DNA of 64,000 nt from Pseudomonadota bacterium (GCA_039193195.1 JBCCWS010000001.1:69338-133337); one strand, 5' to 3'. Positions 35,778-46,959 are shown, numbered from the stretch's first letter. The notes: a model not told the origin generated them from the letters alone. Made by a program: numbers and translations.

Positions 35778-36328
35778 TCAGCCATGCACCGAACTATCTT
35801 CATAGGTACCGTCGTGCTCCATGGCGTCGCTGATAGACTGCTCTTCGGGTGCAGCGAACTCGTAGATATCGGCGCCGGATAGAACGCTGTCGAGCATCGG
35901 GTTGTTGGCCCCCCTCCCCTTGCTCCAGCCGTTCGATACTGCTTGCCACGTAGGCGTCTGCAGGATCCGCGTGTCGGATCTCCGTTTCGATTTCCATGTC
36001 CGCGCGGAGGGCAGCCTCAGACGCTGGCCGCACGCTCTCCACCACGGCGAGGGTGCCGGGCTGTGCGCTCGACCGCCTGGGCGATCTCCAGCGCCTTGCC
36101 GAGCTTGTCGATAGTGTCGAAGTGCTTGCCGATGGCTTCGGTCTTCTGTGCGAGATCGGCGTAGTGCTCAAGGCGGTGGACCGCGTCGATGGCCATGTCC
36201 CAGTCCTTCGCCTTGGCCGCTGACACCAGTGTCTGAAGAGACTAGCTCTGTCCGTGTTTGGCCGCCCACGCCGCCAGATCGTTGAAGGTCTTCGCTTCGC
36301 TTGGGACTTCAGGGGGATCGCCAGCCAT
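35778..36328 (-). pseudogene. Possible decayed gene for an acidic helical protein: SD plus ATG, in-frame TAG after 28 codons, then two apparent frame changes
   Basis: AGGAG-N6-ATG at 36328. TAG at 36244-36242 is in frame with the GTG ORF at 36226. Protein-like translation passes through three frames, with one switch at a C6 homopolymer (35909-35914). Confidence 0.3.
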
Positions 36329-36472
36329 CTCATGCTCCTGGGTGGCGTTGCGCGTACCTGATTGGGCGCTGAACGGGTGGCAAGCGGCTCACCGAGGCTG
36401 CCCGCCATCGACCGTGAGCCAAGCTGGCGTCCGATCACGCCTGAACAGGCAAGGACCCTAGGAGGCCGTTCT

Positions 36473-36937
36473 ATGTCTGCAGCCCAATCCCCTCGCGCCG
36501 GGGCACCGTCCATCGTGTATCGCTACGGGGCCCTCGCTTGGGTCTGGCGCGCCCTGATCGCTGTGGCCTTCTCCCTGACCGGTGCGGCCCTGCTCCTGTC
36601 CTTCAAGATTGGAGATTGGGGTCTCGTCTACGTGGCTTTGCCTATGTTCATACCGGCCGCCGTCGGCGGCTGGGTCACCGTGACGCGCATCGAGGTCCCC
36701 GCTGGCGAGCGCAGCGTGCTCCAGGTCAGTAACCTCCTGGGCGTGCCGAGGCGAATCGAGCGCCGGCGCCTGCGGGGCACATGGAAGCGGGACACGGTCT
36801 ACGGCACCTATGGGCAGCCGATTCCCGCACCGCGCCTTTGGGTCTGGGTGCGTGGAGGCATGCCCCTGTACCTCGATCTCTTAGCGCCGCTCGTCGATCG
36901 CAGCGCCCTCCAGTGCCTGATCAGCACCGGTTCCTGA
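36473..36937 (+). CDS. Membrane protein with two TM helices and a small beta-rich C-terminal domain (bacterial PH-like?)
   Basis: SD ggagg 8 nt upstream of ATG 36473. TM helices LAWVWRALIAVAFSLTGAALLL and LVYVALPMFIPAAVGGWV. Confidence 0.55.
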   Translation: MSAAQSPRAGAPSIVYRYGALAWVWRALIAVAFSLTGAALLLSFKIGDWGLVYVALPMFIPAAVGGWVTVTRIEVPAGERSVLQVSNLLGVPRRIERRRLRGTWKRDTVYGTYGQPIPAPRLWVWVRGGMPLYLDLLAPLVDRSALQCLISTGS

Positions 36938-36997
36938 GCCGATTTCGAGTTCCCCCACGCCTGAAGGAACAACCCTCACACGAATCGACGGAGCTAG

Positions 36998-37882
36998 ATG
37001 ATGGCTGATGGCAAGACCCCGGATCAGGAACAGGACACCGCCACCGAGCTCGGTCCGAACATGTGGTTCACCGAGTACGGCATGCCTTTCACGACCATGA
37101 TCCTCGAGGCGGAGGCGGCCGAGCGAAACAACCCGGACACGCCGCCGCAAGAGGAACGCAGCGAACTCGCCCAGTTCATCATCGATCAGGAAACGGCGGT
37201 TGCGCGCGATTACCACGCAGGGCTCATTGGCAAGGAGGAGTTCGAGGGCTACAAGGCGGATGCCCAGGACCGCTTCGACAACATGGTCGACAAGCTGAGC
37301 ACGGAGATCGAGGAGTTTGGTGATGATTTCGAGGACTGGGGCAAGGACTTTGAAGTCTCCGTGAAGGACTTCGCCAACGAGCACGGCGGGGAGATCGAGT
37401 CCATCGTAGACCTTGCCAAGACGCGTGAGCTCGAGGCCAAGGACGTCTCCCTGCACCTGATGGCAGATGCCATGGGACTCGGTGTGGACGGCGTGGACGA
37501 TCTGCTCGAGCGTATGCCGCCTCACCTGCACGATATCGTTGAGACCTTAGGTGAAGAGACTGTGGGCGTAGCCCACCACCTGCTCGATGCGCGCGAAGAA
37601 CTTAGCTCCGCCGAGGAACACGATCTCAGCCGGGACGAGGCGCGTCTGGAGGCGATCGAACCTGTATTCGAGGCGCAGATTGACGAGGCGCACGAGGGTA
37701 TCGACCAGGACTTCGACCGCATCGACAACGACCTCGGCATCGTCCAGGACTACGTCGAGGCCGCCAAGGATCACGGTGAACTCAATCCGCAGCTCACGGT
37801 GGAGCACATGCCCTACCGCACCACGGAAGACTACGACCTGCCGGAGCAGGTCGAAGATAACACCGGCATCACGGACGCCTAG
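36998..37882 (+). CDS. Highly acidic cytoplasmic hypothetical protein (294 aa)
   Basis: Long GC3-biased ORF with no TM helices. D/E-rich helical sequence. 13 nt upstream of the FHA gene. Confidence 0.6.
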   Translation: MMADGKTPDQEQDTATELGPNMWFTEYGMPFTTMILEAEAAERNNPDTPPQEERSELAQFIIDQETAVARDYHAGLIGKEEFEGYKADAQDRFDNMVDKLSTEIEEFGDDFEDWGKDFEVSVKDFANEHGGEIESIVDLAKTRELEAKDVSLHLMADAMGLGVDGVDDLLERMPPHLHDIVETLGEETVGVAHHLLDAREELSSAEEHDLSRDEARLEAIEPVFEAQIDEAHEGIDQDFDRIDNDLGIVQDYVEAAKDHGELNPQLTVEHMPYRTTEDYDLPEQVEDNTGITDA

Positions 37883-37894
37883 GCACCCATACCC

Positions 37895-38518
37895 ATGAGC
37901 GCTGTAGACTCCACCGTTCACGGCGGCGTAGGTACACGGGTCCTGCGTACTACGAGCTTGTACACCGTGGCCGCTTGGTGCGCCGCGCTCGGTGCCCCAG
38001 AGCTGCTGCCAAGCTTCGGCCTCGAGGGCGATGTGTACGTGCGCTGGATTGCGCTCGGTGCTGCCGCCAGCGTGCCGATCGTGGCGCTTAGCGCCTGGTG
38101 CTGGGAGCGTGCTTGGCACCGTACTTGCGCAGGCCCAGCGCCGTCGCCCGCTCAGTCACCGACGATCGCCATGGAGCCTACCGTCGCGACCATCGGCAAG
38201 GCGGCCATCTCCATGCAATGGCGAGGCGAGCTGCATCACTTCGACCAAGACCTCGTCATCGGGCGTGCCCCGAGCTGCTCCCTGCACCTGGACGACCCGC
38301 AGATCTCCCGCCGCCATGCAGCCATCGAGTATCGCCGCGGCCGCTGGGTACTGAAGGATCTCGGTTCGCGCAACGGAACACGCCTCGATGGGCAGTTGAT
38401 CGACGGCCAGGTGGTGCTCGGTGCTAAGGGCCGGATCGACTTCTACGAAGGCGGTGTGCCCTTAGTCGTGCACACGGGGCTCGGCGGCGCGACAACTGTC
38501 AGCGACAGTACTGATTGA
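37895..38518 (+). CDS. Membrane-anchored FHA-domain protein
   Basis: Two N-terminal TM segments. FHA core LVIGRAPSCSLHLDDPQISRRHAAIEYRRGRWVLKDLGSRNGTRLDG. Confidence 0.8.
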   Translation: MSAVDSTVHGGVGTRVLRTTSLYTVAAWCAALGAPELLPSFGLEGDVYVRWIALGAAASVPIVALSAWCWERAWHRTCAGPAPSPAQSPTIAMEPTVATIGKAAISMQWRGELHHFDQDLVIGRAPSCSLHLDDPQISRRHAAIEYRRGRWVLKDLGSRNGTRLDGQLIDGQVVLGAKGRIDFYEGGVPLVVHTGLGGATTVSDSTD

Positions 38519-40982
38519 GTCGCTCCTCCACAGGTTCCAGACCGCCGGCAACATCGGCTGCAGACAGGGTTGCCCCCGCCCGTTGTAGTCCTCGGTAGAG
38601 GGTTTGCGCGTGACGGTAGTAGGGGCAGCCATCGGCCGCCACCCCGTCGGCCGCTGCAATGTCACCGAAATCGGTCAGGGCGATCGCCTGGTCGCGGATC
38701 AGCGCGTCGTTTTCCTCCTCATCCTCCGCCAGCTTGCGGAACGTGGCTACGGCGGTGTCGATGCTGCTGCGCGCCTCCTTATGTCGCTCGAGACCGGAAA
38801 GCGCCTTGGCGACCTGTTGGTGGGTGAGGCCTAGGTTGCGTCGGTTCTGCGCATCGCCCGGCTCCGCGATGACGAGCGTCTGGGCTGCCGTGCGGCTAGC
38901 GATGCCGTAGCGCAGCGCCTCGTCGAATTGCTCGAGGGAGGCGTGCAAGTTGCCTAAGTTGTGATTGAAGCGGATCAGTTGCACTAGGAACTGAACGTTC
39001 TCCGGCTCCTCGGCGGCGCGTTCCTCGTAGAAATGTAGGGCCTCGAGGTAGTCAGGGATCGCGGCTTGAGCGTTGCCTGCGTCGGCGTAGGTCTCCCCGC
39101 GCAGGCCGTAGGCGTAGGCGCGCTTGCCAGCCCAGTTGCGCAAGTTCTCCCGCCAGTCGGATTGCTCCAGCTGAGGCAAGTACTCGCCAAGCAACCCTAG
39201 TGCGTCGTCGAAGTTGCGCGCCCATACGAGCACCTTCACCAGGTCGATGCGAAGGTTCCAGCGTCGACTCTGGAGCGTCCAGTCCGCGTCGCCCAGCCGT
39301 GCTAGGGTGCGATCGGCCAGGGTCAGGCCTTCGCGCGCATGTGCCTGCGCCACGTCGGTATCCATGTCGTAGTGGAGCGTGTGGTTGGTGGCGAGCCGCT
39401 TGACCCAAACCATCTCTGCCACCGCTTGGGCGTTGTTGGGTTCGAGCGTAATCAGCTTCTCGAGGGCCAGCTCTGCCTTCTCCAGTTGCTCCAAGCCCTT
39501 CTGGTTCTGTCCTAGGCTGGAGACCCCGAGCCCAGCGAATACATCGTATAGGCGAGAGTAGTTCGAGCCAATGTCCAGCAGTAGATCCGGTGGTGCGGAA
39601 GGGTCGGCTGCGAGCTCATCTAGGAAGCGCTCACCTGTAGCGGCAAGCTGCTCCCGGGCCGGGAGCGTGCCCTGCACATGGGACATGCGATCGTACACGT
39701 CGTACAGCACCTCGCGAGCTAGCTGCCGCGCCTGGCCGAAGCGCGCTTCGGCTCGTTGCTGTGCTTCGGTGGCTGCTTGGTATTGCACTAGGGTGACGGC
39801 GTAGGCCACGGCGAGCGCCGTGCCCGCAAGCACAGCGCTGGCCACTGCTAGGCGTCGGCGGCGAATGAACTTTCCCAACCGATAGGTAAGCGAATCACCC
39901 TTGGCGTGCACCGGGAACCCACTGAGGTAGCGGCGAAGATCATCAGCGAAGGCGGCGACGGAGGGGTAGCGCCTGCTAGGTTCCTTCGCCATCGCCTTTA
40001 GCACGATGGCGTCGAGATCACCACGTAGGCGTCCCCAGTCGGGCAGATCGCGCCGGCGTGCCCGCTGGCTAGGGGCATCTGGGCGCCGCTGGGTAATCAC
40101 CTGCTCGTACTGTGCTGGCGAGAGGCTCTCGGTCTCGAAGGGGCGTTCGCCCGTCAGCATTTGGTAGAGAGCAACCCCCAGCGAGTAGACATCCGTGGCG
40201 GTGGTAAGGGGCTCGCCGCTGACCTGTTCGGGGCTTGCGTAGGCGGGCGTCAAGAGCATGGCCACCGTCTCCTCGCCAGTTTCCTTCGGCAGCAGTGAAC
40301 GTGCGATACCGAAGTCTAGGAGTTTAGGTTCGCCGCCCGCGCTCACCAGCACGTTGCTCGGCTTGATGTCGCGGTGGATCACCAGTGCTCGGTGGGCGTG
40401 TTCGACGGCCGAGCAGACTTTCAGGAACAGCTCGATGCGCTCTGGGATGCTCGAGGGATGAGCGCGCAGGTAGACATCGAGGGGATCGCCGTCGATGTAC
40501 TCCATTACCACGAAGGGCAAGCCATCTTCGGTGGTGCCACCGTCGAGGAGAATGGCGATTCCCGGATGGCGCATGTCCGAGAGAATTTGGCGCTCGCGCT
40601 CGAACTGAGCGACGGCCCGGCTGCCGATGGCGGAAGCGCGGATCACCTTGACGGCCACCTTGGCGTCGAAGGCACCGTCGTCGCGCTGGGCGAGGTACAC
40701 CTGACCCATTCCACCTTCGCCGATGAGCTCGAGCACTCGATAGGGGCCGATGCGCTTGCCCGTGAGCTGTTGCTCGGCGCAGCGCACCATCAGTGTGATC
40801 TCCTCCTCCCCCATACCGGTCTCCTGAGCGGCGGCGCTGATCAGGCGATCGGCGCGTGAGCGCAGGAGTGCCGGGCAGTGCGCATCTAGCCAGTTGCCGC
40901 GTCGGGCCTCTGGAACATCGAGGGCGCTCTCCACCAACCTCAGCAGTTGTTTTCCCGTGTCATGGGAGTCGGGTTTTGTCAT
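38499..40982 (-). CDS. Ser/Thr protein kinase with one TM helix and a long TPR-repeat C-terminal region
   Basis: GEGGMGQVYLA glycine loop, VAVKVI, HRDIKPSNVL catalytic loop, DFGIA, PAYASPEQ. TM LAVASAVLAGTALAVAYAV. TPR-like repeats to the C-terminus. Confidence 0.9.
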   Translation of the reverse strand: MTKPDSHDTGKQLLRLVESALDVPEARRGNWLDAHCPALLRSRADRLISAAAQETGMGEEEITLMVRCAEQQLTGKRIGPYRVLELIGEGGMGQVYLAQRDDGAFDAKVAVKVIRASAIGSRAVAQFERERQILSDMRHPGIAILLDGGTTEDGLPFVVMEYIDGDPLDVYLRAHPSSIPERIELFLKVCSAVEHAHRALVIHRDIKPSNVLVSAGGEPKLLDFGIARSLLPKETGEETVAMLLTPAYASPEQVSGEPLTTATDVYSLGVALYQMLTGERPFETESLSPAQYEQVITQRRPDAPSQRARRRDLPDWGRLRGDLDAIVLKAMAKEPSRRYPSVAAFADDLRRYLSGFPVHAKGDSLTYRLGKFIRRRRLAVASAVLAGTALAVAYAVTLVQYQAATEAQQRAEARFGQARQLAREVLYDVYDRMSHVQGTLPAREQLAATGERFLDELAADPSAPPDLLLDIGSNYSRLYDVFAGLGVSSLGQNQKGLEQLEKAELALEKLITLEPNNAQAVAEMVWVKRLATNHTLHYDMDTDVAQAHAREGLTLADRTLARLGDADWTLQSRRWNLRIDLVKVLVWARNFDDALGLLGEYLPQLEQSDWRENLRNWAGKRAYAYGLRGETYADAGNAQAAIPDYLEALHFYEERAAEEPENVQFLVQLIRFNHNLGNLHASLEQFDEALRYGIASRTAAQTLVIAEPGDAQNRRNLGLTHQQVAKALSGLERHKEARSSIDTAVATFRKLAEDEEENDALIRDQAIALTDFGDIAAADGVAADGCPYYRHAQTLYRGLQRAGATLSAADVAGGLEPVEERLNQYCR

Positions 40983-41064
40983 CGTTGATCTACTTCTGCA
41001 AGACTGCTTGTAAGGTCGGCGCTGGTTTGCGACAGGCAGTCATTGGAAAAGAGCTTCACAGGCC
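40983..41064. promoter_or_regulatory. Divergent promoter region between the STK and ECF sigma genes
   Basis: 82-bp, relatively AT-richer spacer between divergent starts. I could not identify specific -35/-10 elements with confidence. Confidence 0.4.
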
Positions 41065-41619
41065 ATGAGTGACATCACCCAAGTGCTCCAGAACTGGTCG
41101 CAGGAGTCGTCGGAGGAGCGTGGTCGCGTGGTGGCGGCCATGTACGATGAGCTGCGGCGAAACGCCGTATCCCATCTGCGCAACGAGCGCCACGGAGATC
41201 TGCAACCCACTTCGTTGGTCAACGAAGCATTCATGCGGCTAATCAACATAACGCGCATCGACCTGAAGGGGCGAAACCACTTCCTAGGCCTCGCCGGGCG
41301 GATCATGCGCGAGATTCTGGTAGACGAAGCTCGCAAGCTGCGTGCCGCCAAGCGCGACCATGGCCTGCAGACCCGCTTCACGGGCGAGCACATGGGCGGC
41401 GACATGCCGGTGAGCGACTTGCTCGAACTTGATGAGCTGCTCAACGGGTTGGAGGCGATCGACCCCGTCTATGTGAAGCTCTTCGAAGCTCGCGCCTTCG
41501 CCGGCATGACGATCGAAGAAGCAGCCGAGGTGCTGGAGATGTCCCCGGCCACGGTGAAGCGCAAGTGGAAGGTCGCCATGGCCTGGGTGCGCGAACATAT
41601 GGGCGAGCCTACTGAATGA
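41065..41619 (+). CDS. ECF sigma factor of the TIGR02999 / ECF43-like (kinase-associated) type
   Basis: N-terminus MSDITQVLQNW..., YDELRRNAVSHL, LQPTSLVNEAFMRL (region 2), and region 4 FAGMTIEEAAEVLEMSPATVKRKWKVAMAWV. Divergent STK neighbour, with no anti-sigma gene adjacent. Confidence 0.9.
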   Translation: MSDITQVLQNWSQESSEERGRVVAAMYDELRRNAVSHLRNERHGDLQPTSLVNEAFMRLINITRIDLKGRNHFLGLAGRIMREILVDEARKLRAAKRDHGLQTRFTGEHMGGDMPVSDLLELDELLNGLEAIDPVYVKLFEARAFAGMTIEEAAEVLEMSPATVKRKWKVAMAWVREHMGEPTE

Positions 41620-42253
41620 CGATGGCCTGCTCCCAGATCTGAGCGATCTGCGAGAAGGGGACAGGTTGCGTGTAGTACGCCATCGGATCGTTGATGATCA
41701 GCATCGGCTCCATGGTGCCAAAGGGTGTCGGCATCCACGCCATACCGCGCAACACCACCACGTGCCCGGAGAACGGTGAGCTTTTTACGGCCATGATGAT
41801 CGCCTTACCCGCCGCAAGCGTCTGATACAGAGTCATCGGATCCGTAGGGTGTTGCACCGAGGAGTGCCTGCCGCCGTACTCGGCGATCAGGCCCTGAATC
41901 TGAGGTAGCTGTCCGGTGACCGTGCAGTTGGCTGGATTGGCGCAGCAGGTGTTGGGGTGCTGGCCGTAGGCGCGGGCCACTAAGGCGCACTGGGGCGGCG
42001 TCGCCTGGGGACCGTGCGTGGCCAGGATGATCTGCTGTGCCACCGCCGCCCAGCACCAGACTTGAGTCTCCTGCGGGATGTTCTGGATCGGCAGGTCAAC
42101 GGGGGGCGGAGGCTGCTGCGCTTGAGTCGGCCCCCAGCCCGGCGTGTGGCCAGGCTGGGAGTAGGGGGGTTGCGCCAGGGTGAGGCTGCTCGCTAGCAGT
42201 AGCACAAGGGCGGTGCAACGCGCGATGCTGCGCACGGCCGTGGTGCCCGTCAT
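41609..42253 (-). CDS. Secreted papain-fold cysteine peptidase (C39-like / C70 AvrRpt2-like)
   Basis: Signal peptide CTALVLLLASSLTLA. Q....WCWAAVAQQI candidate nucleophile context and downstream SGHVVVLRG candidate His. Start set at M9 (42253). Confidence 0.6.
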   Translation of the reverse strand: MTGTTAVRSIARCTALVLLLASSLTLAQPPYSQPGHTPGWGPTQAQQPPPPVDLPIQNIPQETQVWCWAAVAQQIILATHGPQATPPQCALVARAYGQHPNTCCANPANCTVTGQLPQIQGLIAEYGGRHSSVQHPTDPMTLYQTLAAGKAIIMAVKSSPFSGHVVVLRGMAWMPTPFGTMEPMLIINDPMAYYTQPVPFSQIAQIWEQAIVIQ

Positions 42254-42270
42254 CACACGGTGATGGCAGC

Positions 42271-42810
42271 TCACCACTCCCCGTCCGCTTCGTTACCGTC
42301 GATGACCACTTCAACGGCCTGATTCCAGCCCGTGTTCGGGCCCTGCGGGCCGTAGCCAGGTGCCTGGGGCCCGTAGCCCGGCGTCTGGGGTCCGTACCCG
42401 GGCGCCTGCGGACCTTGCGGGCCGTAGCCCGGCGTTTGGGGCCCGTAGCCCGGGGCGTGAGGGCCTTGCGGGCCGTAGCCTGGAGTCTGAGGCCCGTAGC
42501 CGGGTCCTTGCGGGCCGTACCCAGGACCTTGAGGGCCATAGGGAGCGGGCTGCGGGCCGGCGGGACCATAGCCTGGCCCGTTGCTAGGCACGGCGGCGCA
42601 GCCGCCGTTGCTGCCCGGTCCCGCCGTGGGGAGCATGCCCGGTGGGCACTGAGAGTAGGCCTGCTGGTTGCCCCAGGGCTGATTGGCGTACGGATCGCCG
42701 AGCATCCCCTGCTGCTCCGCCCAAAAGTATCCGCCCATACCCACCGCGATGGCGGCGATGAGGACGATTCGCTGTTGGCCGGTGAGTGTCTTTAGCTTAT
42801 TTAGGTCCAT
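42271..42810 (-). CDS. N-terminally membrane-anchored low-complexity protein with about 11 tandem PGYGPQ repeats
   Basis: TM IVLIAAIAVGMGGYFWA. Repeats (G/A/T)PGYGPQ span aa 77-160 (nt 42331-42582). Confidence 0.6.
   Translation of the reverse strand: MDLNKLKTLTGQQRIVLIAAIAVGMGGYFWAEQQGMLGDPYANQPWGNQQAYSQCPPGMLPTAGPGSNGGCAAVPSNGPGYGPAGPQPAPYGPQGPGYGPQGPGYGPQTPGYGPQGPHAPGYGPQTPGYGPQGPQAPGYGPQTPGYGPQAPGYGPQGPNTGWNQAVEVVIDGNEADGEW
42331..42582 (-). repeat. Coding tandem repeat (degenerate 18-27-nt units, core GGGCCGTAGCCNGG on the plus strand) encoding PGYGPQ units
   Basis: Repeated core seen directly about 11 times on the plus strand. Confidence 0.8.
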
Positions 42811-42883
42811 TGTTTTCGCTCCGGTGTGATGCCCGTTTCCCTAGGCGCACGAGGGGCGCCGATCGGCTCATGGGCAGATCGCG

Positions 42884-43297
42884 TTAGAGGTTGCCCTGGT
42901 AGTAATCCGGGTCGGGGTTCACGTAGCCAGGCTGCGGATACATGGCGCTGTCCATGCCTGGCGATAGGGCGGGGTAGGCGCCGGACTGCCCCGTCGGGCC
43001 GGGATAGCCGGGTTGGGGATAGCCGTTCGCTGGGTAACCCTGCTGGGGGTAGCCCGGCTGTGGGTAGTAGGCGGCGCCGGGGCCCTGCTGCATCAGGCCG
43101 TTCATTTGCTGCATCTCGAGCATCATCTGCTGCTGCTGCTGTTCGAGTTGCTGCTGCATCCAGGTTGCGGACTCCTGGGCCTGCTGCTGCATGGCCGCGT
43201 TCTGCGCCGCCACGCTGAGGGGGCCGGCCAGCTTGGCCAAGACGATCAGGCCGATGATGCCGAGGAGGAAGAGTTTTGGGAGGACGCTGCTGTTCAT
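42884..43297 (-). CDS. Signal/anchor-bearing low-complexity protein: Gln-rich coiled segment followed by a (Q)PGYP Tyr/Pro/Gly-rich tail
   Basis: ATG 43297. LFLLGIIGLIVLAKLAG, then MQQQAQESATWMQQQLEQQQQQMMLEMQQMNGLMQQ, then YYPQPGYPQQGYPANGYPQPGYPGP. Confidence 0.55.
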   Translation of the reverse strand: MNSSVLPKLFLLGIIGLIVLAKLAGPLSVAAQNAAMQQQAQESATWMQQQLEQQQQQMMLEMQQMNGLMQQGPGAAYYPQPGYPQQGYPANGYPQPGYPGPTGQSGAYPALSPGMDSAMYPQPGYVNPDPDYYQGNL

Positions 43298-43453
43298 GGC
43301 CTGGTGGCTCCGGTGGTCTGGGGGCTGTATCGGTCTAGGCGCGAGCGCGGGGGATTTCGGCTCACGCAGCGTGTGGCGATGGTGCGTGAGCTGATTCGCG
43401 CCTGCTCCGCGCCTAAGGGAGCAACCCATCCCCAAGAACGAGCGGAGCCGATC

Positions 43454-44299
43454 ATGACTGCCACCGAACCCACCATCGCCTGTCCCAAGTGCGCAAACCC
43501 AAATCCGCTCGGCGCCAAGTTCTGCAGCAGCTGCCGGGCTCCCCTGGGCGTCGCCACTGCGCCTCCGGGCCCTGCCGCCGCGCCGCCCCCGCGTCCCGCC
43601 GCGGGCCTCGCCGGCATGGTGGGTGCGGGCGCCGGCAAGAGTGAGACTCGCCAGCTACAGGCGGACGCGGCATCCGTCTTCGAGCACCTCTCCAACGGCC
43701 TGCGCAACCGCGGCGGCCAGGTGCAGCAGGAGATGCCGATGCAGTTGAATATCAAAGTGCCTTACAAGAGCTTCTGGCTCACGTTGGGCGCGGTGATCCA
43801 GGTCGATACCGCCATGCAGGTGGTGCCGACAGCGGCCGGCCAATGTCAGGCCACGCTCACCACCAAGACCGATGGCAGCAGTTTGAACAACGTGTGGACG
43901 TGGTTCGCCGTGTCTTTCACGATCCTGCTCTTCTTGAACCTCTACATCTTCCCTATCATCATTCTGCTGGGAGCGGTCAGCGCCTTCTTCAACCACCGCC
44001 AGCTCAACAGCCAGCCTGGCGCAAAGATCACCGAAGAGCTCTTCGCCGATCTCAACAACAACCTATCGTCCTTGACAGCCAGTGCGGATCAAGCCACTCA
44101 ACCCGCGCCTGGACCTAGCCTCCAACCAGAGCCGCAACCCGCGCCACAGGCCAGCAACTGCGCAAGCGAAGAGAAGCAGGGACTCGAGCAGGAAGAGGTC
44201 TTTGACCGCTTGGCTAAGCTCGCCAAGCTGCGCGAGATGGGCGCGGTGACGGAGGAGGAGTTCGACGCCAAGAAGGCTGAACTTCTCAAGCGCATCTAG
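43454..44299 (+). CDS. Zinc-ribbon / TM / SHOCT-domain protein
   Basis: N-terminal CPKCANPNPLGAKFCSSC. TM region VWTWFAVSFTILLFLNLYIFPIIILLGAVSAFF. C-terminal SHOCT-like EEVFDRLAKLAKLREMGAVTEEEFDAKKAELLKRI. The track's N-terminal extension is antisense to the previous gene. Confidence 0.65.
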   Translation: MTATEPTIACPKCANPNPLGAKFCSSCRAPLGVATAPPGPAAAPPPRPAAGLAGMVGAGAGKSETRQLQADAASVFEHLSNGLRNRGGQVQQEMPMQLNIKVPYKSFWLTLGAVIQVDTAMQVVPTAAGQCQATLTTKTDGSSLNNVWTWFAVSFTILLFLNLYIFPIIILLGAVSAFFNHRQLNSQPGAKITEELFADLNNNLSSLTASADQATQPAPGPSLQPEPQPAPQASNCASEEKQGLEQEEVFDRLAKLAKLREMGAVTEEEFDAKKAELLKRI

Positions 44300-45798
44300 T
44301 GGCGAGCGAAGCGGTCGCGCAGTACTGCGTCGCCTGCGGTCATACCCTGCAGGTCGGCGCCAGCTTTTGCACCGAGTGCGGGCACGAGATCGGCAAGGTG
44401 CCGGCGGCAACCGGCAGTTGGCAGGCGCCGCAGATGCTCGGCGGCACCTGCACGACCTGCGGCGGCGACGGCTCCCTGCTCGAGGCAAGCCAGGTCTACT
44501 GCCCAAGCTGCCGCTGGCTGCGCCCCCTAGGCGAGGACTACTTCGTCGACCTCGACGCCTTCATTTGGCAAATGGACGCTCAGGCCATGCAGGCGCTCAA
44601 CAGCACGGGCGCCGTTGCGAGCGCAGCGCACTCCATCGCCGAGCGCTACGGTCGTCCGGTCTTCGAGGCGGCGACCAATGGTATACGCCTCTCCGAGCGG
44701 CAAATGCCAGAGATCTTCGACATTGCGATCCGCGCGGCGCGTTTGCTGTCGCTATCGCACATGCCGGAGGTGTACATCTCCGGCCAGCGCATGTGGGACG
44801 TCTACTCGCTCGGGGGCTTCAGCGGCAGCTTCGTCTCGATAGGCAGCGTCTTGATTAACTTCAAGCCGAAGGACCTGTTGTTCCTGATCGCCCGGGAGAT
44901 GGGCCACGTGCGGGCGGGCCACGTGTACTGGTCCACCGCGATGCAGTTTCTCATGGGGCAGTCCAAGGGCCAGGGGACGATCCTTGGGGAGGGTGTGTTT
45001 CAGTTCTTAAACCCCACCAAGATCATCGAGTCTGCGATAGAAGCGCCGATGATGCGCTGGGCCCGTCACTCGCAGATCACGGCGGATCGTGCCGCGGCGC
45101 TGGTGACTGGGGACATCGACACGGCACGCCGGGTGTTGACCCAATGGGCCATGAAGTCCTTCCCGGTCGCGGGCAAGATGAATCTCGACGCCTGGCTTGA
45201 GCAGGAAGCGGCGGCCGACGATCCCTACCTCAAGCTGTCCGAGTGGACGATGTCCACCGAGCCCTATCTGGCGCCACGGTTGAAGTCCCTGAACGCGTTC
45301 GTGCACTCGCAGGCCTTCCTCGAGTGGTTCGCGTACATCCAACACTGGAGCGAGCAAGCAGGCCTTCCCTCGTTTGACGATGGTGCCGCGAAGAAAGCCA
45401 AGCGCGCTAAGCCCGCGCCATCGCCGCCGCCGAACACGGAGAGGATCGAGTGTCGGGCCTGCGGTGAGGCCATGCGCGTGCCCACCCACATCCTGGAGGG
45501 CGACAAGCCCGTCAACGTGCGCTGCCCGAACAAGGCCTGTCGCAAGGTACTGCGGGTCAAGCCGAGGAAGAGGCGGACGGCGAGCGAGGAGTCCCCACGA
45601 ACCCGTCGTGCGCGCGAAAAGGTCAAGCTCAACTGCGCTGCCTGTGGGGAGGCGATGATGGTGAACCGGGCGGATCTGGCGGGAGATGAACCCGTCAACG
45701 TGCGCTGCCCGAACGCCGCGTGCGGCGAGATTCTCACGATCAAACCGAAGAGGCGCGATGACGCATCGACCAATCGACCGGATCTGATGGCGGACTAG
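44299..45798 (+). CDS. Double zinc-ribbon protein with an M48-like peptidase domain carrying a degenerate HExxH (REMGH) and two C-terminal zinc-ribbon repeats
   Basis: CVACGH..CTECGH and CTTCGG..CPSC. FLIAREMGHVRAGH at 44893-44907. Duplicated C(R/A)ACGEAM...PVNVRCPN(K/A)AC modules. The GTG start overlaps the upstream TAG by 1 nt. Confidence 0.65.
   Translation: MASEAVAQYCVACGHTLQVGASFCTECGHEIGKVPAATGSWQAPQMLGGTCTTCGGDGSLLEASQVYCPSCRWLRPLGEDYFVDLDAFIWQMDAQAMQALNSTGAVASAAHSIAERYGRPVFEAATNGIRLSERQMPEIFDIAIRAARLLSLSHMPEVYISGQRMWDVYSLGGFSGSFVSIGSVLINFKPKDLLFLIAREMGHVRAGHVYWSTAMQFLMGQSKGQGTILGEGVFQFLNPTKIIESAIEAPMMRWARHSQITADRAAALVTGDIDTARRVLTQWAMKSFPVAGKMNLDAWLEQEAAADDPYLKLSEWTMSTEPYLAPRLKSLNAFVHSQAFLEWFAYIQHWSEQAGLPSFDDGAAKKAKRAKPAPSPPPNTERIECRACGEAMRVPTHILEGDKPVNVRCPNKACRKVLRVKPRKRRTASEESPRTRRAREKVKLNCAACGEAMMVNRADLAGDEPVNVRCPNAACGEILTIKPKRRDDASTNRPDLMAD
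45508..45714 (+). repeat. Intragenic duplication: 24-bp perfect copies (cccgtcaacgtgcgctgcccgaac) at 45508-45531 and 45691-45714, within two 61-aa-spaced zinc-ribbon modules
   Basis: Identical 24-mers read directly. The flanking protein sequence is similar but diverged. Confidence 0.85.
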
Positions 45799-45811: not shown

Positions 45812-46315
45812 ATGAGCGAAAGAGAGCCACCGCAGGAGTTTGAAGTCTACCTCGCTGAGGATGGGCATCAGGAAGTGCCGGCGGAGGGTTTCGTCCCGCA
45901 AGAGGGTGTTGTTGTGGAGCGCGCTGCCTCCGCGCGCGACAGCGTTGCCCCGAGCGCTCAGGGCGCTGCGAATTCCGCCCAGAGTCAAGCGCAGGCATTT
46001 CAGGCTGCTCAAGCCAATGCCCAGGTTCAGCAGAGCCTAGCCGAGAGTGAGGTGGCTGCGGCCGATCTGCTCGCTGAGGAGCAGGCGCGGGAGCGCGAGG
46101 AAGAGCACCGACTCGAGGTGGAGATCGCTGAGGATCAGCGCCAGGAAGCCCTCGAAGCGCAAGCCGATGCCGAGGCGGAGCGCCTGGAGGCGCAGGAGGA
46201 GCGCGCCCGAGAAGAGCAGGCGCGTGAGCGGGAGGAAGCAGAGGCCCGCGAGCGGGAAGAGCAAGAAGAGGACGAGGACGACGCGCAAGACGACGGATCG
46301 GACCTCTACGTTTGA
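45812..46315 (+). CDS. Glu/Arg/Ala/Gln-rich coiled-coil-like acidic protein (167 aa)
   Basis: SD ggggagg upstream. EEQAREREEEH / EERAREEQAREREEAEAREREEQEEDEDD low-complexity tail. 13 nt after the previous stop. Confidence 0.5.
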   Translation: MSEREPPQEFEVYLAEDGHQEVPAEGFVPQEGVVVERAASARDSVAPSAQGAANSAQSQAQAFQAAQANAQVQQSLAESEVAAADLLAEEQAREREEEHRLEVEIAEDQRQEALEAQADAEAERLEAQEERAREEQAREREEAEAREREEQEEDEDDAQDDGSDLYV

Positions 46316-46377
46316 GCCAATCCGCCGGTCGTGCACGCCTAGGCAGATAGGCACCCGAACCAACCGAGGAACGTCCC

Positions 46378-46959
46378 ATGGCCGAATTACGTTTCACTGA
46401 CATCGATCGCCCTGAACCCGGCACCGCCGAGGCCGTCGAAGCGGAGTACGAAGTCGAGCTCGCCGGTCTGAACGACAACGAGAGCGCTCAGGTAAAGGAG
46501 GCCATCAGTGAGGCCGAGTTCAACAACGAGCTCGATCAGTTGGACGTGAGCGAAGAGCTGCAGCAGGCCCAGTTTGCCGAAGAGGACCGAGCCGCCGCGG
46601 AGACCTTGCGTGAGGAGCAAGTGGAAGCCGCTGACGTTGGCAACTACGACGCGGCGCGCGAACGCGCTGAACAGGTTCGCGAAGAGCTACGCGAATCCAG
46701 CGACGAACACGGCGGGCAACTCGACGCGGCGCTGGCAGAGAACGCGCACGACGTGGAAGTGCTGAGCGAAGCGGACTTCCAGCAGGAGAACGCCGAGTTC
46801 TTCGAGAATGCGGTAGTGGATATGCCGAGTGCCGAGGGCGTCGATGGGGCCGTGGACGACGCTTGGGATGCGCAGGATGCTGCGGACGACGCGGCTGCGG
46901 ACAGCACGGATTTCGCCGACACGGGCGGCGATAGCTCTATCTACACCGACGTTAGCTAG
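46378..46959 (+). CDS. Highly acidic hypothetical protein (193 aa)
   Basis: SD gagga upstream. D/E/A-rich, with no TM. Confidence 0.5.
   Translation: MAELRFTDIDRPEPGTAEAVEAEYEVELAGLNDNESAQVKEAISEAEFNNELDQLDVSEELQQAQFAEEDRAAAETLREEQVEAADVGNYDAARERAEQVREELRESSDEHGGQLDAALAENAHDVEVLSEADFQQENAEFFENAVVDMPSAEGVDGAVDDAWDAQDAADDAAADSTDFADTGGDSSIYTDVS

What the first reader, a model, noticed from the sequence alone, without database searches (positions are those of the whole stretch)
41609..43297. Operon of two membrane-anchored Tyr/Pro/Gly/Gln low-complexity (prion-like/elastomer-like) proteins plus a secreted papain-fold protease
Three co-directional minus-strand genes, with gaps of 73 and 17 nt.

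Gene 1 encodes a signal/anchor, a poly-Q-rich helix (QQQLEQQQQQMMLEMQQMNGLMQQ) and a QPGYP-type tail.

Gene 2 encodes an N-in TM anchor and then about 11 tandem PGYGPQ units. These resemble the elastomeric PGQGQQ/GYYPTSPQQ-type repeats of glutenins and silks. They would also be ideal dityrosine cross-linking or phase-separating sequences.

Gene 3 encodes a signal-peptide protease with a Q....WCWAAV Cys context (C39-like or AvrRpt2/C70-like). Its own mature N-terminus is P/Q-rich.

The positive-inside rule places all the repeat regions outside the cytoplasm. This suggests an envelope-associated matrix or gel whose components are processed by a dedicated protease. The operon sits directly beside the ECF sigma / STK pair. 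I know of no described bacterial system of this composition.
Basis: partly seen in the sequence, partly recalled or inferred. Interest (0 to 1): 0.75.

Follow-up and report, generated by a model that had tools for sequence, protein, structure and literature searches.

The report
Kinase-sigma regulon: periplasmic silk-like proteins, protease
Two membrane-anchored, silk- or gluten-like disordered proteins and a secreted papain-type protease are real, conserved genes that share one special promoter with their neighbours, so they form the cell-envelope output of an undescribed stress regulon probably driven by the adjacent kinase-activated sigma factor.

Summary
Three minus-strand genes lie at 41609-43297 with gaps of 73 and 17 nt.

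- **g1**: signal/anchor, a Gln/Met-rich helix and a GYP tail.
- **g2**: N-in transmembrane anchor, 10 YGP units (9 of them PGYGP) and a conserved acidic C-terminus ending in Trp.
- **Protease**: Sec-exported, scores above threshold on Pfam Peptidase_C70, has an invariant Cys/His/Asp set and a confident papain-fold model.

g1 and g2 are under purifying selection (pN/pS 0.30 and 0.07), so they are not shadow ORFs.

New here: a 31-nt ECF-type promoter motif, TGAGCC-N17-GCGCCTA. It precedes g1, g2 (with the protease co-transcribed), the divergent Zn-ribbon/SHOCT and M48-like operon, an acidic-protein gene and the u294/FHA operon. That is six sites in 64 kb against 0.1 expected, all inside the cluster. 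The same motif and gene set recur in about 9 gammaproteobacterial and 7 alphaproteobacterial loci.

Anchored P/G/Q/Y-rich periplasmic proteins occur in 15 of 16 cluster-type loci but only 2 of 53 loci where the protease stands alone.

Best reading: this is the envelope output of a phospho-activated ECF43-type sigma/Hanks-kinase pair. That the protease cleaves the repeat proteins (P-G-Y-G|P resembles AvrRpt2's PxFG|xW) is plausible but untested. The matrix or gel idea has no direct support.

The parts
42884..43297 (-). g1: 137-aa protein with an N-terminal signal/anchor, a Gln/Met-rich helix and a Tyr/Pro/Gly/Gln tail (4 GYP units)
   Evidence: ORF and sequence. 83% identical to its L001 homologue, with pN/pS 0.30. 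Analogous genes occur in L013, L081 (two copies), L002, L009/L010 and L012. No Pfam or NCBIfam family.
43334..43364 (-). ECF-type promoter motif upstream of g1 (TGAGCCGAAATCCCCCGCGCTCGCGCCTAGA); it ends 36 nt before the ATG
   Evidence: Regex and PWM scans.
42271..42810 (-). g2: 179-aa N-in bitopic protein. It has a transmembrane anchor, a Cys-x15-Cys loop (CPPGMLPTAGPGSNGGC), 10 YGP units (9 of them PGYGP[QA]) and the conserved acidic C-terminus ...EVVIDGNEADGEW
   Evidence: pN/pS 0.07 against L001, and indels are whole repeat units. The C-terminal motif SGEVDLGEPTEADGW is conserved in L009, L010, L012, L013, L014 and L081.
42840..42870 (-). ECF-type promoter motif in the 73-nt g1-g2 gap (TGAGCCGATCGGCGCCCCTCGTGCGCCTAGG); it ends 29 nt before the g2 ATG
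   Evidence: The homologous site is present in L001 at 5334 (+).
41609..42253 (-). Sec-exported papain-fold cysteine peptidase (C70/C39-like). It has a signal peptide, a P/Q/G-rich linker containing PGWGP, and a catalytic domain with Cys67, His164, Asn188/Asp189 and four further invariant Cys
   Evidence: Pfam PF12385 at 30 bits, above the gathering cut-off of 19. Invariant columns in a 20-sequence alignment. AF2 model with pLDDT 85.6. Foldseek matches to staphopain and C39-like structures. 17 nt after the g2 stop here; overlapping g2 by 4 or 1 nt in L001 and L002.
41065..41619 (+). ECF sigma factor of the kinase-associated type (TIGR02999; QPTS replaces the acidic DAED motif of region 2.2)
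   Evidence: Sequence ...DLQPTSLVNEAF.... The ECF43 rule comes from PMC8999054 and PMC13147305.
38499..40982 (-). Hanks-type Ser/Thr kinase with one transmembrane segment (residues 378-396) and a periplasmic TPR-containing domain of about 430 aa
   Evidence: Pfam Pkinase and TPR hits. Transmembrane segment and architecture conserved in gamma and alpha loci.
43387..43417 (+). ECF-type promoter motif upstream of the divergent Zn-ribbon/SHOCT and M48-like operon
   Evidence: Aligned upstream regions. Scans.
43454..44299 (+). Zn-ribbon, transmembrane, SHOCT-domain protein
   Evidence: Pfam SHOCT and Zn_Ribbon hits. Conserved in 12 loci.
44299..45798 (+). Zn-ribbon M48-like protein with REMGH where HExxH is expected (probable pseudo-peptidase)
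   Evidence: Pfam Peptidase_M48 at 35.8 bits. Motif present in 16 loci.
46313..46959 (+). Promoter motif (46313-46343) and a 193-aa highly acidic protein with no signal peptide
36935..38518 (+). Promoter motif (36935-36965), a conserved acidic 294-aa protein (36998-37882) and an FHA-domain protein (37895-38518)

Best explanation
g1, g2 and the protease are the periplasmic output genes of a conserved regulon. The regulon is most likely transcribed by the adjacent ECF43-type sigma factor after the neighbouring membrane Hanks kinase phosphorylates it.

- **g1 and g2** are inner-membrane-anchored, periplasm-facing, intrinsically disordered Tyr/Gly/Pro/Gln proteins. g2 is a flexible tether ending in a conserved acidic C-terminal tag with a terminal Trp.
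- **The third gene** encodes a Sec-exported, disulfide-stabilised papain-fold cysteine peptidase of the C70/C39-like group.

**Shown here:**
- the genes are real and selected;
- they share a promoter motif with the rest of the cluster;
- anchored P/G/Q/Y-rich proteins accompany the protease whenever it sits in this sigma/kinase cluster.

**Inferred:**
- the motif is read by the cluster's own sigma factor;
- the kinase's periplasmic TPR domain senses an envelope signal;
- once induced, the peptidase trims or sheds the anchored repeat proteins, probably after Tyr-Gly in the P-x-Y-G|P units, and so remodels a disordered periplasmic layer.
For: **Real genes.** pN/pS is 0.07 (g2) and 0.30 (g1), and indels are in-frame repeat units. 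Homologues or analogues occur in 53-58% GC genomes.

**Shared promoter.**
- The regex TGARC-N16-18-GCGCCT gives 3 hits in 64 kb against 0.77 expected. All three lie within 520 bp, in front of g1, g2 and the SHOCT gene.
- At a PWM threshold with 0.1 expected hits per 64 kb there are 6 hits. All are in the cluster; five end 29-36 nt upstream of the start codons of named cluster genes, and the sixth (36391, -) has no confirmed downstream gene.
- The same motif precedes g1-like, g2-like, protease, SHOCT, acidic-protein and u294 genes in gamma loci. In alpha loci it precedes the protease, SHOCT and low-complexity lipoprotein genes.

**Sigma and kinase.** The sigma scores 159.7 bits on TIGR02999 against a cut-off of 126. 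It has QPTS where DAED should be, as in phospho-activated ECF43 sigmas. The kinase has one transmembrane segment and a periplasmic TPR domain.

**Protease.** Pfam C70 hit above threshold. Invariant C67, H164 and N188-D189 plus 4 further Cys. Confident papain-fold model matching staphopain and C39-like structures.

**Coupling to g2.** The genes are 17 nt apart here and overlap by 4 or 1 nt in L001 and L002.

**Co-occurrence.** Anchored low-complexity proteins are present in 15 of 16 cluster loci against 2 of 53 solo loci. The alpha clade uses a non-homologous low-complexity lipoprotein.

**Substrate lead.** AvrRpt2, the founder of C70, recognises PxFGxW and cuts after the Gly. g2 carries nine P-G-Y-G-P units and the protease's own linker has PGWGP.
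Against: - There are no expression, localisation or cleavage data.
- Most protease homologues (about 50 of 69 loci) occur without any low-complexity protein or sigma/kinase cluster. The enzyme therefore has a function independent of g1 and g2.
- Only Y-G-P is invariant across the g2 family. The Pro at P4 is absent in several relatives, g1 has GYP rather than YG, and Pro at P1' is unfavourable for many proteases.
- The sigma and kinase genes themselves lack the motif. Assigning the motif to this sigma factor rests on proximity alone.
- The co-occurrence statistic rests on two clades, not on 16 independent events.
Confidence: 0.4

Rival explanations
1. The genes are co-regulated but mechanistically independent. 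The protease acts on other envelope targets, such as misfolded or foreign proteins, peptides, or a component of the signalling pathway. g1 and g2 act on their own as periplasmic spacers, protectants or sacrificial Tyr/Met-rich antioxidants.
For: The protease family is widespread and about 60-65% identical across Alteromonas, Aeromonas, Photobacterium, Acinetobacter, Nitrospirales and others. It usually has no low-complexity neighbour (51 of 53 solo loci). In 8 loci it is instead paired with a coiled-coil/transmembrane/helical-repeat protein. The regulon also contains unrelated cytoplasmic acidic proteins.
Against: g2 and the protease are tightly juxtaposed or overlapping in L001, L002 and the window. 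A non-homologous anchored low-complexity protein was recruited into the alpha version of the cluster. The repeat unit resembles the C70 recognition motif.
Confidence: 0.33
2. The module is a sensor rather than an output. The C-terminal acidic Trp tag of the tethers, or fragments released by the protease, is the ligand of the kinase's periplasmic TPR domain. Tether integrity or periplasmic geometry would then control sigma phosphorylation.
For: The C-terminal short motif is conserved on an otherwise fast-evolving disordered chain. The kinase has a periplasmic TPR-containing domain of about 430 aa. From general knowledge, TPR domains often bind C-terminal acidic peptides.
Against: L002 and L012 carry g2 and the protease but show no kinase within the DNA fetched. 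The genes sit behind the regulon promoter like outputs. Nothing was found by homology to tie the protease to the kinase: the conserved partner of solo proteases shows no detectable homology to the kinase sensor domain (hhalign probability below 3%). No interaction test was possible.
Confidence: 0.12
3. The papain-fold enzyme modifies the Gln-rich proteins rather than cleaving them. It would act as a glutamine deamidase or transglutaminase and change their charge or cross-link them.
For: From general knowledge, the Cys-His-Asp papain-like fold is shared by transglutaminases and bacterial Gln deamidases. g1 and g2 contain 24 and 20 Gln.
Against: The sequence and fold matches are to peptidases: C70, staphopain, C39-like. 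g1 and g2 have almost no Lys to cross-link (K+R is 2 and 3). Solo homologues have no Gln-rich partner.
Confidence: 0.05
4. The protease is an antibacterial or host-directed toxin or effector, and the neighbouring genes are accessory or immunity genes.
For: Foldseek also matches CDI and papain-like toxin domains (8ssm, 9l5u). The Pfam family is named after a type III effector. In L016 the gene is bracketed by inverted copies of one mobile element.
Against: The protein has a classical Sec signal peptide and four conserved Cys pointing to periplasmic disulfides. No delivery domain or secretion-system genes are nearby. It is embedded in a housekeeping-like signalling cluster conserved in two classes.
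Confidence: 0.04
5. g1 and g2 are GC-driven shadow ORFs and are not expressed.
For: The region is 65-70% GC, and many long spurious ORFs overlap it.
Against: pN/pS is 0.07 and 0.30 with high pS, and indels are in-frame. Termini are conserved. Equivalent genes occur at 53-58% GC. Each has its own promoter motif and Shine-Dalgarno-like GGAG.
Confidence: 0.01

Closest known systems
AvrRpt2 / MEROPS C70 papain-like cysteine peptidases (Pfam PF12385), and the related Peptidase_C39_2 group
   Same: The Pfam C70 model matches above its gathering score. The Cys...His...Asp order is invariant. The papain fold is confirmed. The candidate substrate repeat P-G-Y-G-P resembles AvrRpt2's PxFG|xW site.
   Different: The protein is Sec-exported to the periplasm with four extra conserved Cys, rather than being a type III effector activated by host cyclophilin. 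The match is weak (30 bits) and no PDB sequence relative was found. It is chromosomal and lies in a sigma/kinase regulon. Its specificity is unknown.
ECF43 sigma factor / Hanks kinase pairs (EcfP-PknT of Vibrio parahaemolyticus, EcfK-PknS of Xanthomonas citri)
   Same: The sigma matches TIGR02999. It carries Q-P-T-S where DAED should be, with a Thr at the phospho-site position, and lies next to a transmembrane Hanks kinase.
   Different: The known regulons are for polymyxin resistance and a type VI secretion system. Here the candidate regulon is low-complexity periplasmic proteins, a C70-like protease, Zn-ribbon/SHOCT and M48-like proteins, and acidic proteins. I could not read the EcfP regulon paper, so overlap with it is unchecked.
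LapG/LapD periplasmic proteolysis of the LapA adhesin (functional analogy only)
   Same: A periplasmic papain-superfamily cysteine protease under inside-out signalling control could release a membrane- or envelope-retained protein (paper seen, PMC3032553; otherwise general knowledge).
   Different: There is no sequence relationship: no LapG-family Pfam hit. Control would be transcriptional through sigma phosphorylation, not through c-di-GMP and LapD. The putative substrates are small disordered tethers, not a giant adhesin.
Elastomeric repeat proteins: spider MaSp2 (GPGGY/GPGQQ) and wheat HMW glutenin (PGQGQQ/GYYPTSPQQ)
   Same: The composition and repeat grammar are the same. The window has PGYGPQ, and relatives L009/L010 have GPGGYGPQQ, nearly the silk motif as I recall it.
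   Different: This is convergent low complexity, not homology. An exhaustive HMMER search matches only the repeat region, in 206 unrelated proteins, and the word-index search returns mainly mycobacterial cutinase linkers. The bacterial proteins are 100-220 aa, membrane-anchored and periplasmic.

Membership tests
Peptidase C70 (AvrRpt2-like), Pfam PF12385 | Sequence match to the family model above the curated threshold | tested here: met
   30.0 bits against a gathering score of 19, E 5.6e-7, residues 65-200. Many homologues carry precomputed PF12385 and/or PF13529 hits.
Peptidase C70 (AvrRpt2-like), Pfam PF12385 | Papain-like fold with a catalytic Cys, His and Asp in that order | tested here: met
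   C67, H164 and N188/D189 are invariant in 20 diverse sequences. AF2 model with pLDDT 85.6. Top Foldseek hits are staphopain (1cv8, TM 0.57/0.69) and the C39-like 3erv. The geometry of the triad in the model was not inspected.
Peptidase C70 (AvrRpt2-like), Pfam PF12385 | Cleavage at PxFG|xW-type sites | not testable with these tools
   Only a resemblance: nine PGYGP units in g2 and PGWGP in the enzyme's own linker. The motif is taken from bioRxiv 10.1101/583054.
Peptidase C70 (AvrRpt2-like), Pfam PF12385 | Type III-secreted effector biology (N-terminal T3S signal, host activation) | tested here: not met
   The N-terminus is a Sec-type signal peptide (hydrophobic residues 9-27, TLA|Q). There are four conserved extra Cys and no secretion-system genes nearby.
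ECF43 sigma factors (kinase-activated) | Membership of the TIGR02999 / Sigma70_ECF subfamily | tested here: met
   TIGR02999 at 159.7 bits against a cut-off of 126.15. PF07638 at 137.5 bits.
ECF43 sigma factors (kinase-activated) | Acidic DAED motif of region 2.2 replaced by uncharged residues with a conserved Thr | tested here: met
   The sequence is ...GDLQPTSLVNEAF.... The ECF43 consensus is QTTA, or STTA in EcfP. Alignment to EcfP itself was not done.
ECF43 sigma factors (kinase-activated) | Adjacent Hanks-type Ser/Thr kinase and no anti-sigma factor | tested here: met
   The kinase gene is 82 bp away and divergent (Pfam). No neighbouring product matches an anti-sigma family in Pfam or NCBIfam.
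ECF43 sigma factors (kinase-activated) | Phosphorylation-dependent activation, and recognition of the TGAGCC-N17-GCGCCTA motif | not testable with these tools
   Inferred from proximity and from conservation of the motif.
M48 metallopeptidases (for the neighbouring gene 44299-45798) | HExxH zinc-binding motif | tested here: not met
   Pfam M48 scores 35.8 bits, but the motif reads REMGH in gamma loci and REMGR in alpha loci, across all 16 loci. Its position relative to the Pfam model was judged by eye.
Elastomeric silk or glutenin proteins | Homology beyond repeat composition | tested here: not met
   Exhaustive phmmer finds only the query's own cluster at full length. All other hits cover only residues of about 78-160.
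Bacterial transglutaminase-like cysteine proteinases (LapG type) | Sequence match to the family | tested here: not met
   No such family appears among the Pfam hits at E <= 0.1.

The most novel reading that the evidence does not exclude
The cluster encodes a previously unrecognised kind of envelope stress response. Sigma-factor phosphorylation would switch on a layer of inner-membrane-tethered, silk-like elastomeric polypeptides. These would span or fill the periplasm and carry a C-terminal acidic-Trp docking tag. A dedicated papain-fold protease would tune their length or release by cutting at the Y-G|P repeat units. The result would be a proteolytically adjustable periplasmic 'spring or gel' that also reports envelope geometry back to the kinase.
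Probability: 0.12. Interest if true: 0.85.

Novelty: new variant of a known kind. Interest (0 to 1): 0.6.

Why it matters
Only two regulons of phosphorylation-activated ECF43 sigma factors are cited in the papers I could read: polymyxin resistance in Vibrio and a type VI secretion system in Xanthomonas. This cluster offers a third regulon, conserved in two proteobacterial classes. It comes with a clear candidate promoter motif, so it can be tested directly.

It also points to membrane-anchored, intrinsically disordered, silk- or gluten-like proteins as regular inhabitants of the Gram-negative periplasm. They are paired with a widespread but uncharacterised family of secreted cysteine peptidases, which NCBI annotates only as 'papain-like cysteine protease family protein'.

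If the enzyme does cut the Y-G-P repeats, three things would follow:
- a substrate for that family;
- a bacterial-physiology counterpart to the plant-pathogen effector AvrRpt2;
- a model for regulated proteolysis of disordered envelope proteins.

Cultured carriers of the alphaproteobacterial version exist (Asticcacaulis biprosthecium C19 and Asticcacaulis sp. YBE204), so experiments are feasible.

Tried and rejected
1. **Shadow-ORF explanation.** Rejected by codon-level comparison and by conservation in lower-GC genomes.
2. **Kinase sensor domain homologous to the conserved partner of 'solo' proteases**, which would have tied protease and kinase together. The partner families are homologous to each other (hhalign probability 76-95%) but not to the kinase domain (probability below 3%). 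The partner occurs in only 8 loci.
3. **Finding the g2 family by sequence.** The word-index search returned only the identical protein plus mycobacterial cutinase linkers. Exhaustive phmmer returned only low-complexity matches. A metagenome scan with the C-terminal motif found one uninformative 1.4-kb contig.
4. **PDB sequence search with the protease profile.** No hit.
6. **Generic sigma-70 promoter and terminator scan of 41000-43600.** One weak internal promoter-like site and no terminator.
7. **Literature.** No paper links C70-like proteases, SHOCT or M48 to ECF43. The key EcfP paper (Iyer et al. 2020) is not held, so I could not compare its regulon or promoter.
8. **Looking for the protease in Hyphomonas neptunium**, an ECF43 model organism. 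It is not among the top hits; Asticcacaulis species are the cultured carriers.
9. **NCBIfam.** No hit for g1, g2 or the protease.


Full report
**1. The observation**

The three minus-strand genes exist as described.
- g1 is 42884-43297, 137 aa from the ATG at 43297.
- g2 is 42271-42810, 179 aa.
- The protease gene is 41609-42253, 214 aa from its ATG. The mechanical ORF begins at an upstream GTG at 42277.
- The gaps are 73 and 17 nt, and GGAG-like ribosome-binding sites precede g1 and g2.

g1 has a hydrophobic N-terminus (LFLLGIIGLIVLAKLAGPL, then VAA|Q). It then has the Gln/Met-rich stretch QQQLEQQQQQMMLEMQQMNGLMQQ and a tail with four GYP units.

g2 begins MDLNKLKTLTGQQR, with a net positive charge, followed by a hydrophobic segment. 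This gives an N-in, C-out topology. After that come a CPPGMLPTAGPGSNGGC loop, nine PGYGP[QA] units plus one APYGPQ, and the C-terminus ...AVEVVIDGNEADGEW. The DNA shows only degenerate tandem repeats of period 21, 30 and 51 at 72-82% match.

The sigma gene (41065-41619, +) is convergent with the protease gene and overlaps its 3' end by 11 nt. The Ser/Thr kinase gene (38499-40982, -) follows.

**2. Are g1 and g2 real genes?**

Yes. The identical g2 protein is annotated in NCBI as a hypothetical protein of a Pseudomonadota MAG (AAGA68_00450) on a 542-kb contig.

A relative whose protease is 92% identical (L001, GCA_039815145) has the same gene order. A codon-wise comparison between the window and L001 gives:

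| Gene | pS | pN | pN/pS |
|---|---|---|---|
| g2 | 0.57 | 0.04 | 0.07 |
| g1 | 0.37 | 0.11 | 0.30 |
| protease | 0.43 | 0.11 | 0.24 |
| sigma | 0.40 | 0.005 | 0.01 |

The two g2 length differences are in-frame insertions of whole repeat units. Architecturally equivalent genes occur in genomes of only 53-58% GC (L009, L010, L013, L081). GC-driven shadow ORFs are therefore excluded.

**3. The protease**

- Pfam Peptidase_C70 (AvrRpt2) matches at 30 bits, above the gathering score of 19. NCBIfam has nothing.
- The family is large. There are 417 clusters at E <= 1e-3, annotated by NCBI only as 'papain-like cysteine protease family protein'. Its members are unusually conserved, about 60-65% identical between this MAG and Alteromonas, Aeromonas, Photobacterium and Shinella.
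- In a 20-sequence alignment the invariant residues are C67 (in VWCWAAV), H164 (GHVVV), N188-D189 (INDP) and four further Cys (C89, C103, C104, C110). The extra Cys fit two periplasmic disulfides.
- An AlphaFold2 model is confident, with mean pLDDT 85.6 and above 90 over the domain.
- Foldseek against the PDB returns staphopains first (1cv8, 1pxv, 8oig). It then returns a C39-like peptidase (3erv), papain-like CDI toxins and cathepsins, all at probability 1.00.
- No solved structure is detectable by sequence.

**4. The three genes belong to a larger conserved cluster**

I fetched 71 genome loci through a protease alignment, plus loci found by exact protein look-up. I compared them with the window by tblastn. 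The loci fall into three groups.

*Group A* comprises about 9 distinct gammaproteobacterial MAG loci (L001, L002, L008-L010, L012-L014, L081), with protease identity of 64% or more. These carry:
- the ECF sigma (56-98% identical);
- a Zn-ribbon/transmembrane/SHOCT protein;
- a Zn-ribbon M48-like protein;
- a 193-aa very acidic protein;
- usually also the kinase, an FHA protein and an acidic 294-aa protein.

*Group B* comprises 7 alphaproteobacterial loci from Hyphomonadaceae, Caulobacteraceae and Asticcacaulis (L019, L024, L025, L027, L034, L043, L079). They have sigma, kinase and protease together with the SHOCT, M48-like and acidic proteins.

*The remaining loci*, about 50, have the protease alone. 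In 8 of them it is paired with a coiled-coil/transmembrane/helical-repeat protein.

**5. The repeat proteins travel with the cluster, not with the protease as such**

Every group A locus of useful length has one to three anchored Tyr/Gly/Pro/Gln proteins.

g2-like proteins share three features:
- an N-terminal transmembrane anchor;
- variable YGP[QNS] repeats, for example GPGGYGPQQ in L009/L010 and NGYGPQ in L081;
- a strikingly conserved C-terminus, SGEVDLGEPTEADGW-COOH.

g1-like proteins share a signal/anchor, a Gln/Met-rich helix and a Tyr-rich tail, often ending in an acidic ...W-x-W.

Gene order is shuffled in L012-L014 and L081, but the genes stay within about 5 kb.

All seven group B loci instead carry a lipoprotein. 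It has a 90-110-aa Gln/Pro/Asn/Gly(/Tyr) region, for example QPGYPNQPGYPQQPGYP, and a small folded domain. In the Hyphomonadaceae/Caulobacteraceae loci (L019, L025, L027, L079) it ends in ...QW.

I applied one uniform criterion: an ORF with a 40-residue window of at least 70% P/G/Q/Y/N preceded by a hydrophobic segment. By this test 15 of 16 cluster-type loci are positive, and the exception is a 1.8-kb contig. Only 2 of 53 solo loci are positive, and one of those (L043) is really a cluster locus. Fisher's p is 4e-12. The loci represent two clades, so this is not 16 independent events. Even so, the second clade has a non-homologous anchored low-complexity protein, and that is informative.

**6. 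A shared promoter**

Aligning the regions upstream of the SHOCT gene in nine loci revealed a conserved TGA(G/A)CC...N...GCGCCTA element.
- The regex TGARC-N16-18-GCGCCT hits the 64-kb window three times against 0.77 expected. All three hits lie within 520 bp: 43387 (+) before the SHOCT gene, 43364 (-) before g1, and 42870 (-) in the g1-g2 gap before g2.
- I built a position weight matrix from 12 sites and set a threshold at which shuffled sequence gives 0.1 hits per 64 kb. It finds six sites in the window, all inside the cluster. They are those three plus 36935 (+) before the acidic 294-aa/FHA operon, 46313 (+) before the 193-aa acidic gene, and 36391 (-).
- Five of the six end 29-36 nt before the start codon of a named cluster gene. 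The site at 36391 (-) has no confirmed downstream gene; the nearest plausible small ORF starts about 135 nt away.

In other loci the same motif precedes:
- g1-like and g2-like genes;
- the protease where it is not behind g2 (L013, L014, L081, L079, L019, L024);
- the SHOCT, acidic-protein and 294-aa genes;
- the alpha low-complexity lipoprotein (L025, L027).

The spacing (-35-like TGAGCC, 17 nt, -10-like GCGCCTA) and the position are those of an ECF-type promoter. The sigma and kinase genes themselves lack it.

I infer, but cannot show, that the cluster's own sigma factor reads it. No terminator-like structure separates g1, g2 and the protease. g2 and the protease overlap by 4 or 1 nt in L001 and L002.

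**7. The regulator**

- The sigma scores 159.7 bits on TIGR02999 against a cut-off of 126.
- It has ...LQPTSLVNEAF..., that is Q-P-T-S where ordinary ECF sigmas have the acidic DAED motif.
- This is the hallmark of group ECF43 (consensus QTTA; STTA in EcfP). In that group a neighbouring Hanks kinase phosphorylates the Thr and so licenses binding to RNA polymerase (PMC8999054, PMC13147305, PMC7826278).
- The kinase here has a single transmembrane segment (residues 378-396) and a C-terminal domain of about 430 aa containing TPR repeats, which would be periplasmic. This architecture is conserved in both clades.

**8. How it probably works**

*Shown:* three real genes encode exported or anchored products. 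They are co-regulated with a conserved gene set next to an ECF43-type sigma/kinase pair. Anchored low-complexity proteins and the protease are specifically associated in that context.

*Inferred:*
- An envelope signal sensed by the kinase leads to sigma phosphorylation and then to transcription from the TGAGCC-N17-GCGCCTA promoters.
- The outputs are disordered tethers on the periplasmic face of the inner membrane and a periplasmic cysteine peptidase, together with cytoplasmic Zn-ribbon and acidic proteins of unknown role.

The most economical role for the peptidase is to process the tethers. One lead comes from AvrRpt2, the founding C70 member. It recognises PxFGxW and cuts after the Gly (bioRxiv 10.1101/583054 citing Chisholm et al. 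2005). The g2 unit is P-G-Y-G|P-Q nine times over, and the enzyme's own linker contains PGWGP.

There are cautions:
- The homology to AvrRpt2 is distant.
- Only Y-G-P is invariant across the g2 family.
- g1 has GYP rather than YG.
- Most homologues of the enzyme live without such proteins.

I therefore give the full model a probability of about 0.4. The 'co-regulated but independent' rival gets about 0.33.

**9. What I could not support**

- No evidence bears on gel or matrix formation, dityrosine cross-linking or phase separation.
- One idea that would have tied the protease to the kinase was that the conserved partner of solo proteases is homologous to the kinase sensor domain. It failed, with hhalign probability below 3%. 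This does not directly test whether the kinase TPR domain binds the tethers' C-terminal tag.
- The g2 repeats are not a unique sequence type. An exhaustive HMMER search finds 206 unrelated proteins matching only the repeat region. A word-index search finds mainly mycobacterial cutinases with PGYGPQ-like linkers.

**10. Comparison with what is known, and novelty**

- The enzyme is a new, periplasmic branch of the C70/C39-like papain-fold peptidases. It meets the sequence and fold criteria but not the effector biology.
- The regulator is a member of the ECF43 sigma/kinase type.
- The repeat proteins resemble silk MaSp2 and glutenin repeats only by convergence.
- LapG/LapD is a functional analogy only.
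- I found no publication describing this cluster, its promoter motif or the g1 and g2 families. However, the paper on the EcfP regulon could not be read.

I class the finding as a new variant of a known kind: a kinase-controlled ECF regulon with an unprecedented output module. It is of moderate to high interest because it is directly testable in cultured Asticcacaulis.

Noticed in passing
window 44299-45798 (+); also L001, L002, L010, L013, L014, L019, L025, L027, L079, L081: The Zn-ribbon M48-like protein has REMGH (gamma loci) or REMGR (alpha loci) where the HExxH zinc-binding motif of M48 peptidases is expected. It is probably a catalytically dead pseudo-peptidase. It also carries two N-terminal and two C-terminal zinc-ribbon modules.
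   Followed up: partly
window 36391 (-), 36935 (+), 42870 (-), 43364 (-), 43387 (+), 46313 (+): A 31-nt ECF-type promoter motif (TGAGCC-N17-GCGCCTA) occurs six times in the window, only inside the cluster. The site at 36391 (-) has no clear downstream gene; the nearest plausible small ORF is 36017-36226 (-), about 135 nt away.
   Followed up: partly
window 36998-37882 (+), 45812-46315 (+), 46378-46959 (+): Three extremely acidic, probably disordered proteins without signal peptides belong to the same cluster. They have no Pfam family. Two of them sit behind the shared promoter motif, and the 294-aa and 193-aa ones are conserved in 8-11 loci. The cluster therefore encodes disordered proteins for both the cytoplasm (acidic) and the periplasm (Tyr/Gly/Pro/Gln).
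   Followed up: partly
L002 7548-10628 (-); L081 18469-18669 (-): In two group A loci a large Peptidase_C11 (clostripain-like, 908-929 aa) gene lies in or beside the cluster. In L002 it lies directly downstream of a g1-like gene that carries the promoter motif. This is a second cysteine peptidase associated with the regulon.
   Followed up: no
L005 6561-7364, L028 8635-9444, L015 8603-9478, L031, L064, L039 8626-9852, L057 225-1115, L061: In 8 'solo' loci the protease is paired with a conserved protein made of a cytoplasmic coiled coil, one transmembrane segment and a helical-repeat (weakly TPR-like) periplasmic domain. The four sub-families are homologous by hhalign (probability 76-95%). The Aeromonas and 'Ca. 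Scalindua' versions are 53% identical, which suggests horizontal transfer of a two-gene module.
   Followed up: partly
L016 5727-7474 (-) and 8744-10491 (+): In a Nitrospirales MAG the protease gene is bracketed by two inverted copies of one two-ORF element (375 aa and 211 aa; the ORF termini printed are identical). This looks like a composite transposon carrying the protease.
   Followed up: no
proteins P0122-P0166: Many mycobacterial cutinase-family proteins contain a PGYGPQ-like repeat linker that is 60-79% identical to the g2 repeat region. The same repeat grammar is therefore used as a linker in secreted actinobacterial enzymes.
   Followed up: no
L009 2973-3323 (+), L010 7429-7785 (+): A third small anchored YGPQ protein lies between g2 and the protease in these relatives. 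It has a transmembrane segment and QYGPQQ repeats, and ends in ...SNDDW or ...SNDGW. The number of tether genes therefore varies from one to three per cluster.
   Followed up: partly
L020 4821-5585 (-): A Phenylobacterium MAG contig has a transmembrane-anchored YGP/PYGP-rich protein 3 kb from the protease. No sigma/kinase/M48 cluster is detectable in the 14 kb available.
   Followed up: no
window 41609-41619: The convergent sigma and protease genes overlap by 11 nt at their 3' ends. No terminator-like hairpin was found in the region.
   Followed up: no
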